Positions 600-4,784 of a stretch of DNA of 6,988 bases are shown here, piece by piece. Source of the DNA: Escherichia coli (lineage in GTDB: Bacteria; Pseudomonadota; Gammaproteobacteria; Enterobacterales; Enterobacteriaceae); the NCBI RefSeq assembly GCF_024298765.1, contig NZ_CP101214.1, one strand, 5' to 3'. The position numbers were made by a program, and so were the translations under genes. The notes below the pieces were generated by a model. The model was given only the letters and a program-made list of their open reading frames with translations, was not told the DNA's origin and searched no databases. The number at the start of each line of letters is the position of its first letter. The stretch's first letter is position 1.

Positions 600-748
600 A
601 TGGCTGAATAGCTATGCATACGGTTAAAATTTATCAGGTGCGATCGCGGCAGCTTTTCGGGTGGTTTGTTGCCATTTTTACCTGTCAGCAGCCGTGATCG
701 CGCTGAACGCATTTCAGCGGTGCGTACAATTAAGGGATTATGGTAAAT
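600..748 (+). other. cer-like Xer site-specific recombination (multimer resolution) site: ArgR-box-like element plus XerC/XerD core
   Basis: Core at 719-748 is GGTGCGTACAA (XerC arm) - TTAAGGGA (8-bp central region) - TTATGGTAAAT (XerD arm), which matches the ColE1 cer crossover site as I recall it. About 100 bp upstream (around 602-620) TGGCTGAATAGCTATGCAT resembles an ArgR box (TGAAT...ATTCA-like), at the spacing expected for the cer accessory region. Confidence 0.8.
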
Positions 749-751
749 CCC

Positions 752-1174
752 TTACTGTCTGCCCTCGTATCCATCGAGATAAACCGCAGAAATGGTGTCT
801 GCCATTAGTTTCATTTTTTTCGGCGAAGGCATATCGCTGTTTGTGTATTTTCTGCCAGCAAAGGCTGTTGTGCTCCGGAGTGAGTGAAAAAATTTTTCTG
901 AGTGGAATTCTTTTACACGTTGCTGTGCCGTTTCTGCTGATACTCCGGCTGCTTTGTCTTTCATCCCCATATCCCGGAACTGCTGAAAGAACGGGAGCAT
1001 CATACGTATGGTGTCTGCTTTCTGGGTGTAGAAGTTAGGATCAAATCCATCATCTGAAGCATAAACATAATGCCGGGTATGTCGTTCCAGGCTGGTCTTT
1101 GGTGTGCATCCTGTAAGAGCTATTGTTGCTGTTATCAGAGGTATCAGAAGCAGCCTGGCAGCGGCAGATTTCAT
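752..1174 (-). CDS. Small lipoprotein of unknown function (about 140 aa; possibly an entry-exclusion-type lipoprotein)
   Basis: ORF on the minus strand. AAGGAG lies 6 nt upstream of the second ATG (1174); the first ATG (1180) abuts the SD. N-terminus MKSAAARLLLIPLITATIALTGC has a basic n-region, a hydrophobic core and an L-T-G-C lipobox (signal peptidase II type). Thr at +2 suggests outer-membrane sorting. Confidence 0.65.
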   Translation of the reverse strand: MKSAAARLLLIPLITATIALTGCTPKTSLERHTRHYVYASDDGFDPNFYTQKADTIRMMLPFFQQFRDMGMKDKAAGVSAETAQQRVKEFHSEKFFHSLRSTTAFAGRKYTNSDMPSPKKMKLMADTISAVYLDGYEGRQ

Positions 1175-1988: not shown

Positions 1989-2054
1989 TTGACATGGACA
2001 ATGCTGAGTAGTAGGTTTTACTGTATATAAAACCAGTGGTTATATATACAGTAT
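1989..2054 (+). promoter_or_regulatory. Colicin operon promoter with tandem overlapping LexA (SOS) boxes
   Basis: -35 TTGACA at 1989-1994, with a -10 candidate in 2009-2020. CTGTATATAAAACCAG (2021-2036) overlaps GTGGTTATATATACAG (2036-2051): the CTGT-N8-ACAG-type double SOS operator typical of colicin promoters. AAGAGG RBS at 2085-2090 precedes the ATG at 2096. Confidence 0.8.
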
Positions 2055-2095: not shown

Positions 2096-3742
2096 ATGGC
2101 TAAAGAACTAAGTGGATATGGACCAACTGCTGGTGAGTCTATGGGGGGAACAGGGGCGAATCTGAATCAGCAAGGTGGAAATAATAATAGTAATAGTGGG
2201 GTTCACTGGGGTGGTGGCTCTGGGCATGGTAATAATGGTGGTCAGGGAAATTCAAATTCATCTGGTTCTACATCAACTGTGATGAAAACCGGTGAGTCAT
2301 ATCTGACTCCGTGGGGTGATGTTGTCATTAATAATGATGGCCTTCCGGTGATGAATGGTATTGTTATGACAGAAGAGAATTCAACTCTGGTTGATAATCC
2401 ATTTGGAGGGGTCTCCAGAGTTCTTAATTCTTTAATTAGTGATATGCCATCACTTTTTGCAGAAAGCTCAGGAAATAACAACAATAACACTGCTTCAGTT
2501 AATACTGCACCAACGAATGCTCAGGTCAGTGATATGGATAAGAGTTCGAAGGTGGTGGGTAATGTAATTAATGAAAAACAAAAGCAGAAGAATAAAATTG
2601 CTACACAGATTAGTGAAAAACAGAAGAAAATCGAGGAGATGAAAAAAGTATTCAAGCATCATTCTTATCATGGTATCACTGATCTTGAGAGGGATGTTGA
2701 TGAGTTGCAAAAAAAATCAAATCAGCTTGATGCAGATATTAGCAAACTTAATTCTTATAAAAATACATTGCAAAGTAAAATTGGTGATGTGAATAAACAG
2801 AAGGAAGCTGAAGAAAAGGTTCGTGAAAATGCAGAGGTCGCTGAACATGAAACTCTTAATGAAGAGAAACAGGCGGTGGCGGAAGCAGAGAAGCGTTTAG
2901 CTGAGGCGAAAGCTGAACTGGCGAAGGCTGAAAGTGATGTACAGAGTAAGCAAGCTACTGTTTCCAGAGTTGCAGGAGAGCTTGAAAACGCTCAGAAGAG
3001 TGTTGACGTGAAGGTCACCGGATTTCCGGGATGGCGTGACGTTCAGAAAAAACTACAGCGTCAGCTTGAAGCTAAGCAGGCTGAGTACTCCGCAGTTGAA
3101 AATGAACTTAAGAATGCTGTTAGTTTCAGGGATGGTAAGGCCGCTGAGGTTAAAGAGGCAGAGCAGAAATTAAAAGAAGCTCAGGATGCTCTTGAAAAGA
3201 GCCAGATAAAAGATGCTGTTGATACTATGGTTGGATTTTATCAATATATAACCGAACAATATGGAGAAAAATACGCAAAAATTGCTCAGGATTTAGCGGA
3301 AAAGTCTAAAGGAAAGAAAATTCAAGGTGTTGATGAAGCTCTGGCAGCATTTGAAAAGTATAAGAATGTACTGGATAAGAAATTCAGTAAGGTTGATCGG
3401 GATGCTATTTTTAATGCGTTAGAGTCTGTTAATTATGATGAGTTATCTAAGAATTTAACGAAGATATCAAAGTCGCTTAAAATCACCAGTCGAGTATCTT
3501 TTCTATATGATGTTGGTTCTGATTTTAAAAATGCAATAGAAACTGGTAACTGGCGACCTTTGTTTGTCACGCTGGAGAAAAGTGCGGTCGATGTAGGTGT
3601 GGCAAAAATTGTGGCATTAATGTTTAGTTTTATTGTTGGTGTGCCTCTTGGTTTCTGGGGGATTGCAATTGTCACAGGTATTGTTTCTTCTTACATAGGG
3701 GATGATGAGTTGAGCAAACTTAATGAGTTGTTAGGGATTTAA
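2096..3742 (+). CDS. cka: Pore-forming colicin, most likely colicin K (548 aa)
   Basis: 548-aa ORF with a Gly/Asn/Ser-rich N-terminal domain (typical of Tol-dependent colicin translocation domains), a long charged coiled-coil central region, and a C-terminal domain with a hydrophobic helical hairpin ([35 protein letters not shown]) typical of pore-forming colicins. Length and N-terminus [15 protein letters not shown]... match my recollection of colicin K. SOS promoter upstream, immunity and lysis genes downstream. Confidence 0.85.
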
Positions 3743-4029
3743 TTTCTCTTTAGAGTGTAATATATGAAACTTGGCAATCCTACTGGGATTGCCATTAATA
3801 AATAAAACAATGCAGATAACTTGCATAAGTACCAGGGTTCTTTTTTTAACTTTGTATTTTCTTTGATATATCTAGATATGGTTAATTTAGAGTATGGATA
3901 TAGCAATACATGTATTGATGATATAAATATAAATAACAAAGGAGTGTTATCATTCTCGTTAAATATTAAAATAAGAATCCATGGTATAAGTGATTCAGGT
4001 AAATTATGTAGGTAGTATTTTAAATGCAT
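3739..4029 (-). CDS. cki: Colicin immunity protein (integral membrane, 96 aa), convergent with the colicin gene
   Basis: Minus-strand ORF immediately downstream of and opposite to the colicin gene, the arrangement typical of pore-forming colicin immunity genes. Very hydrophobic protein with several predicted TM segments ([35 protein letters not shown]). Its stop codon overlaps the colicin stop at TTAA 3739-3742. Confidence 0.85.
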
Positions 4030-4058: not shown

Positions 4059-4190
4059 ATGAAAATAATAATTTTTCTAATTACAATATTATTCTTGTCA
4101 GGATGTCAAGCAAACTATATTCGTGATGTACAAGGAGGAACCGTTGCACCATCTTCGTCTTCTGAACTGACGGGGATCGCGGTTCAGTAG
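4059..4190 (+). CDS. ckl: Colicin lysis (bacteriocin release) lipoprotein, 43 aa
   Basis: ATG at 4059, TAG at 4188-4190; not in the ORF track because it is short. [43 protein letters not shown] has a signal peptide with an L-S-G-C lipobox and the conserved mature region of colicin lysis proteins. Last gene of the colicin operon. Confidence 0.85.
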
Positions 4191-4199
4191 AAAAGATCA

Positions 4200-4226
4200 A
4201 AGGATCTTCTTGAGATCCTTTTTTTC
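4200..4226 (+). terminator. Putative rho-independent terminator at the end of the colicin operon (overlaps the RNA II promoter)
   Basis: Inverted repeat AAGGATC (4200-4206) / GATCCTT (4214-4220) with a 7-nt loop, followed by a T-run (4219-4225), 10 bp after the lysis gene stop. Confidence 0.55.
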
Positions 4227-4238
4227 TGCGCGTAATCT
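4210..4238 (+). promoter_or_regulatory. RNA II (replication primer) promoter
   Basis: -35 TTGAGA (4210-4215), 17-bp spacer, -10 TAATCT (4233-4238). Same architecture as the pMB1/ColE1 RNA II promoter in pBR322, recalled from memory. Confidence 0.75.
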
Positions 4239-4249
4239 GCTGCCTGTAA

Positions 4250-4352
4250 ACGAAAAAACCGCCTGGGGAGGCGGTTTAGTCGAAGGTTAAGTCAGTTGGG
4301 GACTGCTTAACCGGGTAACTGGCTTTAGTGGAGCACAGATACCAAATGCTGT
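4250..4352 (-). ncRNA. RNA I antisense copy-number control RNA (about 100 nt)
   Basis: Minus-strand promoter: -35 TTGAAG (complement of 4383-4388), 18-bp spacer, -10 TACACT (complement of 4359-4364), start near 4352 (ACAGCAUUUGG...). 3' end has a hairpin, AACCGCCT / AGGCGGTT at 4257-4276, followed on the minus strand by a U-run. Fully complementary to the 5' end of RNA II. Confidence 0.8.
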
Positions 4353-4358
4353 CCTTCC

Positions 4359-4388
4359 AGTGTAGCCGCTATAAGGCTTCAACTTCAA
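4359..4388 (-). promoter_or_regulatory. RNA I promoter
   Basis: TTGAAG -35 and TACACT -10 on the minus strand with an 18-bp spacer, arranged as in pBR322 RNA I. Confidence 0.7.
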
Positions 4389-4784
4389 GAGTTCTGCGTA
4401 TCTAAATCCACTATCCAGTTACCAATGGCTGCTGCCAGTGGCGTTAAGTCGTGTCTTACCGGGTTGGACTCAAGACGATAGTTACCGGATAAGGCGCAGC
4501 GGTCGGGCTGAACGGGGGGTTCGTGCACACAGCCCAGCTTGGAGCGAACGACCTACACCGAACTGAGATACCAACAGCGTGAGCTATGAGAAAGCGCCAC
4601 GCTTCCCAAAGGGAGAAAGGCGGACAGGTATCCGGTAAGCGGCAGGGTCGGAACAGGAGAGCGCACGAGGGAGCCACCAGGGGGAAACGCCTGGTATCTT
4701 TAAGTCCTGTCGGGTTTCGCCACCTCTGACTTGAGCGTCGGTTTTTGTGATGCTCGTCAGGGGGGCGGAGCCTATGGAAAAACG

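What the first reader, a model, noticed from the sequence alone, without database searches (positions are those of the whole stretch)
4200..4238. Colicin-operon terminator hairpin overlaps the RNA II promoter
The inverted repeat AAGGATC-N7-GATCCTT with its T-run lies 10 bp after the lysis gene, and its loop and 3' arm contain the RNA II -35 (TTGAGA, 4210-4215). Read-through from the SOS-induced colicin/lysis operon would run into the replication primer promoter, and terminator folding and promoter occupancy share the same DNA. This gives a built-in physical link between colicin induction and replication control.
Basis: partly seen in the sequence, partly recalled or inferred. Interest (0 to 1): 0.5.

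Follow-up and report, generated by a model that had tools for sequence, protein, structure and literature searches.

The report
Colicin terminator hairpin inside primer promoter
The hairpin is real, but it is the standard, long-studied start of the ColE1-type replication module (primer promoter with two methylation sites, shaped like a terminator), is identical in ColE1, CloDF13 and pBR322-type vectors, and shows no sign of being a special link between colicin induction and replication.

Summary
The window is a complete 6988-bp colicin K plasmid of the ColE1 family. A perfect 9-bp inverted repeat (AAAGGATCT 4199-4207 / AGATCCTTT 4213-4221, 5-nt loop) and a 7-T run (4219-4225) start 8 nt after the lysis-gene stop (4188-4190). 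The repeat contains the RNA II -35 (TTGAGA 4210-4215); the -10 is TAATCT at 4233-4238, with a 17-bp spacer.

It scores as an intrinsic terminator and is the only candidate between the lysis gene and the RNA II start.

The same sequence occurs in ColE1-type, cloacin-type and pBR322-type plasmids. In 78 distinct ColE1-like primer promoters, conservation begins exactly at the 5' arm, whether or not a colicin operon lies upstream. The conserved core is GATC-N7-GATC plus the -35, the Dam-site pair already tied to hemimethylation control of these plasmids. The T-run and long stem are variable add-ons. They are present in 15 of 34 replicon clusters, absent in colicin S4-type plasmids, and present in many plasmids without a colicin.

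Best reading: a replicon-owned promoter palindrome that here doubles as the operon's end terminator and insulates the primer promoter. The proposed induction-to-replication coupling is untested and gets no support here. I judge the anatomy already known, but from memory: the primary papers could not be retrieved. Low interest.

The parts
1989..2053 (+). cka promoter region with -35-like TTGACA (1989-1994) and overlapping LexA (SOS) boxes CTGTATATAAAACCAGTGGTTATATATACAG (2022-2052)
   Evidence: Read directly from the sequence. The SOS-box assignment is by motif and by established knowledge of colicin promoters.
2096..3742 (+). cka, pore-forming colicin K (548 aa)
   Evidence: ORF list. Records 99.9% identical are annotated 'cka: pore-forming bacteriocin colicin K'.
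3739..4029 (-). cki, colicin K immunity gene (96 aa), opposite strand
   Evidence: ORF list and annotation of identical records.
3772..3794 (.). Perfect 9-bp hairpin 30 nt after the cka stop and inside the 3' end of cki; candidate internal operon terminator (T1-like), weak T tail
4059..4190 (+). Lysis (colicin release) lipoprotein gene, [27 protein letters not shown]...; stop TAG 4188-4190. The mechanical ORF starts at TTG 4044; ATG 4059 is the likely start.
   Evidence: ORF list. Matching records are annotated 'colicin release lysis protein'.
4195..4198 (.). GATC (Dam) site 1, present only in the ColE1/CloDF13/ColK-type upstream block
4199..4207 (+). 5' arm of the hairpin, AAAGGATCT; contains GATC site 2 (4203-4206). 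This is where family-wide conservation of the replicon begins.
4208..4212 (+). Loop TCTTG; its last three bases are the first three of the -35
4213..4221 (+). 3' arm of the hairpin, AGATCCTTT; contains GATC site 3 (4214-4217), 11 bp from site 2
4210..4215 (+). RNA II (primer) promoter -35, TTGAGA
   Evidence: Identical to the ColE1-type and pBR322-type sequences. Position is consistent with the RNAI hit. The mapping of the promoter itself is established knowledge, not tested here.
4219..4225 (+). Run of 7 T. It is the U-tract of the terminator form and, at the same time, part of the promoter spacer.
4233..4238 (+). RNA II promoter -10, TAATCT (17-bp spacer); inferred RNA II start near G4246
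   Evidence: The start site is inferred from homology with ColE1.
4250..4350 (-). RNA I antisense regulator, with its own terminator hairpin at 4256-4277
   Evidence: Rfam RF00106, 77.4 bits, E 1.9e-13; terminator scan.

Best explanation
The 4199-4238 stretch is the upstream edge of the ColE1-type replication module. It is the primer (RNA II) promoter, and its -35 sits in a palindrome built around two Dam GATC sites 11 bp apart.

In this plasmid, as in ColE1, pMB1 and cloacin-type plasmids, the palindrome is lengthened by an A3/T3 extension and followed by a T-run. When the same DNA is transcribed from upstream it therefore produces an intrinsic-terminator hairpin. That hairpin most likely ends the colicin K operon transcript (the 'T2' position, just after the lysis gene). 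This keeps upstream transcription from running through the primer promoter and into the RNA I/RNA II control region: insulation, not regulated coupling. The GATC pair serves a separate, DNA-level role, delaying re-initiation on hemimethylated plasmids through SeqA.

Shown here: the sequence anatomy, the fold, the terminator-type score, the position relative to the lysis gene and RNA I, identity with classical plasmids, and the conservation pattern. Inferred: that termination occurs here in vivo, and that its role is insulation. Taken from the literature: the Dam/SeqA role.
For: Anatomy and terminator character:
- Hairpin plus T-run are present, and the hairpin fold and hairpin counts exceed shuffled controls.
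- It is the only terminator-like site on the + strand between the lysis stop and the RNA II start.
- My rough terminator score for the core is +11.5, in the range of the window's RNA I terminator (+22.5) and rrnB T1 (+14.6). Variants without a T-run (ColS4, p15A-type, L009) score -33 to -58.

Identity with classical plasmids:
- ColE1-type (L001, L004), cloacin-type (L002, L003) and pBR322-type (L114) carry the same sequence.
- In the 8 ColE1/CloDF13/ColK-type lysis contexts the hairpin is identical and starts 8 nt after the lysis stop.

Replicon ownership:
- In plasmids without a colicin, homology begins at window 4199.
- Column information rises from about 0 to more than 1 bit at columns 12-16 of the 78-sequence alignment.
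- Both GATC sites are kept in 56 of 78 sequences.

Selection on the hairpin form:
- The A-run 5' of the core and the T-run 3' of it co-vary in length (Spearman 0.52-0.55, permutation p = 0.001).
- T-run forms occur in 15 of 34 replicon clusters.

Dam role:
- Patnaik et al. [quoted passage not shown]
- Colicin operons in general are described with terminators T1 and T2 (PMC4353708).
Against: - No transcript 3' ends were available, so termination at this site is only predicted.
- The stem is AT-rich (3 G-C pairs, -10.7 kcal/mol) and may be leaky.
- A fixed-register covariation test gave no convincing support for the stem: 65.8% of cells paired against 64.0% in shuffles, and the score was no better than for slid registers. 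The G15-C31 pair is broken in 33 of 78 sequences.
- The terminator-like form is not clearly tied to a co-directional upstream gene once lysis contexts are removed (5 of 20 against 10 of 53, p = 0.54).
- The A-run/T-run correlation is not corrected for relatedness.
- The primary papers on the ColE1 and CloDF13 operon terminators could not be retrieved. The link to published terminator mapping therefore rests on my memory.
Confidence: 0.7

Rival explanations
1. Coupling device. Polymerases arriving from the SOS-induced colicin/lysis operon either terminate on top of the primer promoter and occlude it, or read through and make 5'-extended RNA II. Either way, colicin induction would change the frequency of replication initiation and the copy number.
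For: The geometry allows it. The operon and RNA II are co-directional. The predicted release point lies inside the promoter spacer. A polymerase paused on the U-tract would cover both the -35 and the -10 (inference from known polymerase footprints). From memory only: a CloDF13 copy mutant, cop-1(Ts), was mapped to the cloacin-operon terminator just upstream of the primer promoter, and old reports describe more ColE1 DNA after mitomycin C.
Against: - The identical element is kept in replicons with no colicin operon, in pPCP1-type plasmids that retain only a lysis-gene stub, and in cloning vectors.
- ColS4-type colicin plasmids lack the terminator form.
- Read-through RNAs are predicted to keep the RNA I target loops.
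- Flux reaching this point is already limited by the internal T1-like site.
- Cells expressing the lysis gene die, so selection for such coupling is doubtful.
Confidence: 0.1
2. A DNA-level element only. The palindrome exists because two GATC sites, each self-complementary, flank the -35 for Dam/SeqA control. The T-run is just an AT-rich promoter spacer, and the terminator shape is a by-product with little or no termination in vivo.
For: - The conserved units are GATC-N7-GATC and the -35, not the stem: both GATC sites are kept in 56 of 78 sequences, while stems of 7 bp or more occur in only 30 of 78.
- No base-pair covariation was found.
- Two GATC sites plus the A of TTGAGA account for 5 of the 9 stem pairs without further selection.
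- The Dam-site function has experimental support.
Against: - The further 4 bp of stem, and stems of up to 14 bp in other lineages built from matched A and T runs, are not needed for Dam sites.
- The T-run form recurs in 15 of 34 replicon clusters.
- The core scores like accepted terminators.
- The same arms followed by a T-run lie distal to bla in Tn3, where no -35 is involved.
Confidence: 0.17
3. A chance inverted repeat with no function.
For: The stem is short and AT-rich.
Against: 0.27 such hairpins are expected per window, against 4 seen, all at gene ends or known RNA elements. The fold has z = -2.9. The element is conserved across hundreds of plasmids.
Confidence: 0.01

Closest known systems
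ColE1/pMB1 primer (RNA II) promoter with its cluster of GATC (Dam) sites
   Same: The sequence is identical from GTAGAAAAGATC through TAATCT in ColE1-type and pBR322-type plasmids. It has the same three GATC sites, the same -35, -10 and spacer, and the same position relative to RNA I.
   Different: Nothing in the promoter itself differs. This copy sits in a colicin K plasmid, and the RNA II leader downstream differs at a few bases (GCCTGTAAACG here, GCTTGCAAACA in pMB1).
Distal (T2) terminator of colicin and cloacin operons in ColE1-type plasmids (ColE1 cea-imm-kil; CloDF13 cloacin operon)
   Same: A hairpin plus T-run 8 nt after the lysis-gene stop, identical in sequence in ColE1-type and cloacin-type records. 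T1 and T2 are standard parts of colicin operon descriptions (PMC4353708).
   Different: Published mapping of T2 for ColE1 and CloDF13 could not be retrieved here, and I know of no transcript mapping for colicin K. ColE2/E7-type plasmids, the subject of the paper cited, use a different replicon, so their T2 does not overlap a primer promoter.
Hairpin distal to bla in Tn3, as carried by pBR322/pUC vectors
   Same: The arms are the same (AAAAGGATCT / AGATCCTTTT) and are followed by TTTTT and then a TAATCT-like hexamer. It lies about 100 bp upstream of the primer-promoter hairpin in the vector (L114 414-452).
   Different: The loop is AGGTGA rather than TCTTG, so there is no TTGAGA -35, and the distance to TAATCT is too short for a promoter. 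It lies after bla, not after a lysis gene.
Bidirectional intrinsic terminators (A-tract, stem-loop, U-tract)
   Same: An A-run 5' of the stem, a T-run 3' of it, and co-varying run lengths across the family. The scan calls it on both strands.
   Different: The minus-strand tail (GATCTTTTCT) is poor: the rough score is -60. The stem is weaker than in typical examples.
Transcriptional interference or promoter occlusion between tandem promoters
   Same: An upstream transcription unit is aimed at a downstream promoter on the same strand.
   Different: Here a terminator lies between the two and would normally prevent interference. No interference has been measured.

Membership tests
Intrinsic (Rho-independent) terminator | Stable stem-loop in the transcript | tested here: met
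   9-10 bp stem, -10.7 kcal/mol, z = -2.9. Only 3 G-C pairs, so moderate strength.
Intrinsic (Rho-independent) terminator | U-tract immediately 3' of the stem | tested here: met
   7 T at 4219-4225. Rough terminator score +11.5, similar to rrnB T1 and the RNA I terminator under the same treatment.
Intrinsic (Rho-independent) terminator | Lies shortly after the stop codon of a co-directional gene | tested here: met
   8 nt after the lysis-gene stop at 4188-4190.
Intrinsic (Rho-independent) terminator | Transcript 3' ends map to the U-tract | not testable with these tools
   No transcript data were available.
ColE1-type RNA II (primer) promoter | -35 TTGAGA and -10 TAATCT with a 17-bp spacer, homologous to ColE1/pMB1 | tested here: met
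   Identical to ColE1-type and pBR322-type sequences. TTG and GTAATCT are fixed in the census, partly by construction of the search; AGATC is at 90% or more.
ColE1-type RNA II (primer) promoter | The transcript starts opposite the 3' end of RNA I, on the other strand | tested here: met
   RNAI at 4350..4250 on the minus strand; inferred start near 4246.
ColE1-type RNA II (primer) promoter | Match to a generic sigma-70 consensus | tested here: not met
   The scan did not list it, because TAATCT matches only 3 of 6 positions of TATAAT. This reflects the scan's threshold and does not argue against a promoter that has been mapped experimentally.
Dam/SeqA-sensitive GATC pair at a plasmid origin | Two or more GATC sites about one helical turn apart at the promoter | tested here: met
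   Sites at 4203 and 4214 (11 bp apart), plus 4195.
Dam/SeqA-sensitive GATC pair at a plasmid origin | The pair is conserved across the family | tested here: met
   Both sites are present in 56 of 78 distinct promoters. The literature describes a 'conserved pair'.
Dam/SeqA-sensitive GATC pair at a plasmid origin | Promoter activity or replication depends on methylation state | not testable with these tools
   Reported for ColE1-like plasmids but not tested for this plasmid.
Colicin operon distal terminator (T2) | Lies at the end of an SOS-controlled colicin, (immunity), lysis operon | tested here: met
   LexA boxes upstream of cka. Gene order cka, cki (opposite strand), lysis gene.
Colicin operon distal terminator (T2) | Present in all ColE1-replicon colicin plasmids | tested here: not met
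   ColS4-type contexts (L006, L020) have the palindrome but no T-run and score -33 to -45.
Conserved RNA structure supported by covariation | Compensatory base changes beyond the controls | tested here: not met
   65.8% of cells paired against 64.0% in shuffles. The covariation score of 0.176 is no better than for the structure slid by one column (0.183). Only isolated compensatory cases were seen (L009, L032, L054, L045).

The most novel reading that the evidence does not exclude
The terminator and promoter overlap works as a traffic-dependent switch. Heavy SOS-induced transcription reaching the hairpin either occludes the primer promoter or supplies 5'-extended primers. Colicin induction would then measurably change plasmid copy number, and the variable T-run across ColE1-like replicons would tune how strongly each plasmid's replication senses upstream transcription.
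Probability: 0.1. Interest if true: 0.45.

Novelty: already known. Interest (0 to 1): 0.15.

Why it matters
For this window it matters little. The sequence is the same as in ColE1, CloDF13-type and pBR322/pUC plasmids, among the most studied DNA in molecular biology.

The comparative picture has some practical value. The left boundary of the ColE1-type origin is a palindrome that can act as a built-in upstream insulator in some lineages (ColE1, pMB1, CloDF13) but not in others (the p15A-type sequence, ColS4-type). This may explain why origins differ in their sensitivity to read-through from cloned genes.

If the coupling idea were true, it would connect the SOS response to plasmid copy control. 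Nothing found here favours it.

Tried and rejected
- **Primary papers.** I tried to retrieve Waleh & Johnson 1985, van Putten 1986, Patnaik 1990, Lloubès 1988, and the Cascales 2007, Kues & Stahl 1989 and Camps 2010 reviews. None is held. Statements about published terminator mapping and about cop-1(Ts) are therefore from memory and are marked as such.
- **Full-text searches.** Searches for colicin + terminator + RNA II found no paper stating the overlap. A search for the sequence itself found only vector and primer listings.
- **Generic promoter scan.** It does not call the RNA II promoter. I rejected this as evidence against the promoter, because the scan's threshold excludes TAATCT.
- **Fixed-register covariation test** on 78 promoters: no convincing signal. 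I do not claim a covariation-supported RNA structure.
- **Terminator score.** The first version, which included the A-U extension in the stem, gave negative values even for rrnB T1. I repeated it with core stems only. The formula is reproduced from memory and uncalibrated, so I use it only for relative comparison.
- **Terminator form against upstream gene.** The association is weak (p = 0.04) and disappears without the lysis contexts (p = 0.54). The ORF-based gene proxy is noisy.
- **Read-through RNA folds.** MFE folds show no change in stem-loops I-III. This is weak evidence only.
- **Chance repeat.** Rejected.

Full report
**What the window is.** The 6988 bases match many 6988-bp circular plasmids over their full length at 99.9% identity. 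These records are annotated with cka (colicin K), cki (immunity), a lysis protein, mobilization genes and exc2. pColK-K235 matches at 99.6%. The window is therefore a whole ColE1-family colicin K plasmid. Rfam places RNA I at 4350..4250 on the minus strand (77.4 bits, E 1.9e-13). The primer transcript RNA II therefore runs on the + strand, the same direction as cka (2096-3742) and the lysis gene (4059-4190). Upstream of cka lie a TTGACA hexamer and overlapping LexA-type boxes, as expected for an SOS-controlled colicin operon.

**The observation.** The sequence reads ...CAG TAG AAAAGATC AAAGGATCT TCTTG AGATCCTTT TTTTCTGCGCG TAATCT G....
- The repeat finder reports a perfect 9-bp inverted repeat, 4199-4207 / 4213-4221, with a 5-nt loop.
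- The terminator scan lists it on both strands.
- As RNA it folds at -10.7 kcal/mol, z = -2.9, with none of 200 shuffles as stable.
- The window has four perfect hairpins with stems of 9 bp or more, against 0.27 expected. The other three also sit at meaningful places: after exc2, after cka, and at the RNA I terminator.
- The T-run is 4219-4225, and the lysis stop is 4188-4190, 8 nt before the stem.
- Three GATC sites lie at 4195, 4203 and 4214. The last two are 11 bp apart and form the inner part of the two arms.

**Is it a terminator?** It is the only terminator-like site on the + strand between the lysis stop and the RNA II start. The next one is at 4726, deep inside the origin. I scored it with a rough hairpin-energy plus T-tail formula, written from memory, uncalibrated and used only for comparison. 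The core (GGATC..GATCC plus TTTTTTTCT) scores +11.5. This is similar to the window's RNA I terminator (+22.5) and to rrnB T1 (+14.6) treated the same way. The stem is AT-rich, so I expect moderate and possibly leaky termination. No transcript data could be consulted, so termination in vivo is inferred rather than shown.

- A BLAST search with 4150-4360 against 72,556 plasmids hit the 5000-record limit. In plasmids with no lysis gene, the alignments start at query position about 50, which is window 4199, the first base of the 5' arm.
- I fetched 23 diverse records. I also ran one unbiased scan of 100,044 species genomes, anchored only on the -10 and the RNA I terminator and not on the hairpin. 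Together these gave 78 distinct promoter segments, which align without gaps.
- Upstream of column 12 there is no conservation. From column 14 onward there is: A14 1.4 bits, G16 1.6, ATC 1.2-1.3, then TC-TTGAGATC at 1.5-2 bits.
- Both inner GATC sites are kept in 56 of 78 segments.
- What lies upstream varies widely: siderophore receptor, methyltransferase, toxin-antitoxin, retron, qnrB19, sul2, or nothing co-directional.
- The identical sequence, starting with the GTAG that includes the lysis gene's stop codon, follows the Tn3 end in a pBR322-type vector.
- Yersinia pestis pPCP1-like contigs keep only about 11 terminal codons of a lysis gene in front of it.

The palindrome is therefore the left edge of the replication module, not an attribute of the colicin operon.

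**What is conserved: structure or sequence?** A fixed-register pair count on the 78 sequences gave 65.8% paired cells against 64.0% in column shuffles (14 of 500 shuffles as high). The covariation score was no better than for registers slid by one column, and the G15-C31 pair is broken in 33 sequences. There is thus no convincing base-pair covariation. The core is conserved as sequence: the -35 plus two GATC sites. Because GATC is self-complementary, two sites plus the A of TTGAGA already provide 5 of the 9 stem pairs.

The outer part behaves differently.
- Stems range from 0 to 14 bp.
- The longer stems are built from matched A-runs and T-runs. The two run lengths correlate (Spearman 0.52-0.55, permutation p = 0.001, not corrected for relatedness).
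- A T-run of 5 or more occurs in 15 of 34 replicon clusters, defined at 88% identity over the 400 nt downstream. States are mixed within clusters.

This pattern suggests that the terminator-like form is gained and lost repeatedly, and is under some selection where it is present.

**Link to colicin operons.** Among 92 distinct contexts, 11 have a lysis gene directly upstream.
- Eight are of the ColE1/CloDF13/ColK type. They carry the identical hairpin and a 7-T run, starting 8 nt after the stop.
- One Raoultella plasmid (L071) has a 9-bp stem and an interrupted T-run.
- The two colicin S4-type contexts have the stop codon inside the 5' arm, a 13-bp or 6-bp stem, and no T-run. They score as non-terminators.
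- Conversely, 10 contexts with no detectable co-directional upstream gene carry the full terminator form.
- The association between terminator form and an upstream co-directional gene is weak: 12 of 30 against 10 of 53, p = 0.04. It disappears without the lysis contexts: 5 of 20 against 10 of 53, p = 0.54.

**Mechanism I consider most likely (confidence about 0.7).** One piece of DNA is read in two ways.
- As duplex DNA it is the primer promoter with a Dam-site pair. A 2025 preprint describes a conserved pair of origin-proximal Dam sites in ColE1-like plasmids and reports that mutating them removes a replication eclipse attributed to SeqA binding of hemimethylated DNA. Patnaik et al. 1990 addressed the same GATC sites in the primer promoter (cited).
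- As RNA transcribed from upstream, it forms a hairpin plus U-tract that ends the colicin K operon message. This shields the promoter and the RNA I/RNA II control region from upstream transcription.

**The coupling proposal (about 0.1).** It needs polymerase traffic effects. A polymerase pausing on the U-tract would cover the -35 to -10, and an open complex at the primer promoter would face incoming polymerases. These are reasonable inferences from what is known about transcriptional interference, but nothing here supports them. MFE folds of read-through RNAs keep stem-loops I-III intact. An internal T1-like hairpin after cka (3772-3794) would already limit flux. Cells that express the lysis gene die.

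**DNA-only reading (about 0.17).** In this reading the terminator shape is incidental. The recurrent A/T-run extensions and the Tn3 example count against it, but it is not excluded.

**Comparison with what is known.** The promoter, its GATC cluster and RNA I are textbook ColE1 biology. Colicin operons are routinely drawn with T1 and T2 terminators (PMC4353708). From memory, which I could not verify with the tools, the ColE1 operon paper (Waleh & Johnson 1985) and the CloDF13 literature place the distal terminator just after the lysis gene. Also from memory, the CloDF13 cop-1(Ts) mutation was mapped to the cloacin-operon terminator immediately upstream of the primer promoter, with a Dam-dependent phenotype (van Putten et al. 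1986). Because the cloacin-type records carry the identical sequence, that work would concern this same hairpin. I therefore rate the finding as already known. The caveat is that no explicit statement of the overlap could be retrieved.

**Verdict.** Novelty: already known. Interest 0.15.

Noticed in passing
L114 414-452 (pBR322-type vector pJM50, KT950740.1): About 60 nt after the bla stop, Tn3 carries a hairpin with the same arms as the primer-promoter hairpin (AAAAGGATCT-AGGTGA-AGATCCTTTT). It is followed by TTTTT and GATAATCT. pBR322-type vectors therefore hold two near-twin hairpins about 100 bp apart. Whether they share ancestry or converged is unclear.
   Followed up: partly
L114 499-503 compared with window 4187-4191: In the pBR322-type vector, pMB1-derived sequence begins directly after the Tn3 terminal repeat with GTAG AAAAGATC. 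The vector thus retains the last bases and the stop codon of the lost lysis gene, and then the hairpin.
   Followed up: yes
L113 691-744 (Pseudomonas putida lab plasmid pPD584, IncP/RK2 replicon): An orphan 44-bp copy (GTAGAAAAGATCAAAGGATCTTCTTGAGATCCTTTTTTTCTGCG) sits between an rrnB T1 terminator with an AscI site and RK2 origin sequence. It has no -10 and no RNA II. It is a vector-construction remnant that carries the hairpin and -35 alone.
   Followed up: partly
L006 (colicin S4 plasmid pSYM12), around locus position 790-830: The csl lysis gene's TAA stop lies inside the 5' arm of a 13-bp perfect palindrome (CTGTAAAGGATCT-TCTTG-AGATCCTTTACAG). There is no T-run, and the -10 is TAGTCT. The operon appears to have no intrinsic terminator before the primer promoter.
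   Followed up: partly
L067, L068, L096 (Yersinia pestis NCTC5923 contigs and an Amphibacillus assembly contig): pPCP1-like replicons keep only the last ~11 codons of a lysis gene (…SSAELIGSAIQ*), preceded by an in-frame stop and followed by the identical hairpin and promoter. This is a fossil of a former colicin-type operon end.
   Followed up: partly
window 3772-3794: A perfect 9-bp hairpin (TGGCAATCC-TACTG-GGATTGCCA) lies 30 nt after the cka stop and inside the 3' coding end of the oppositely oriented cki. It is a candidate internal (T1-like) attenuator of the operon. It has a weak T tail on both strands.
   Followed up: partly
window 731-754: A perfect 9-bp hairpin abuts the stop of the minus-strand exc2 lipoprotein ORF (752-1180). 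It is a likely terminator for that gene, although it has no clear T tail.
   Followed up: no
window 4199-4221, minus strand: The same hairpin is called terminator-like on the minus strand too (tail GATCTTTTCT). It lies 30 nt beyond the RNA I terminator, so it could act as a back-up stop that keeps RNA I read-through from running antisense into the lysis gene and on towards cki. Its rough score is poor (-60).
   Followed up: partly
window 4220-4226 and 4252-4258: The T-run (TTTTTTC) is complementary to GAAAAAA at the 5' end of RNA II, 25 nt downstream. In a read-through transcript the two could pair, but MFE folds did not use this pairing.
   Followed up: partly
L024, L026, L027, L031, L066, L083 and other loci: ColE1-like origins, including a sequence I recognise from memory as the p15A-type promoter (L066), appear on small contigs in assemblies of Streptomyces, Lentzea, Cutibacterium, Streptococcus, Solirubrobacter and Clostridia MAGs. 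These are almost certainly vector or enterobacterial-plasmid contamination of the assemblies.
   Followed up: no
Replicon clusters (for example L001, L005, L093 against L006): Plasmids whose 400 nt of RNA II sequence cluster together can carry different promoter spacers (T-run against CGTCG-type). The promoter-proximal segment therefore appears mosaic relative to the rest of the origin.
   Followed up: no
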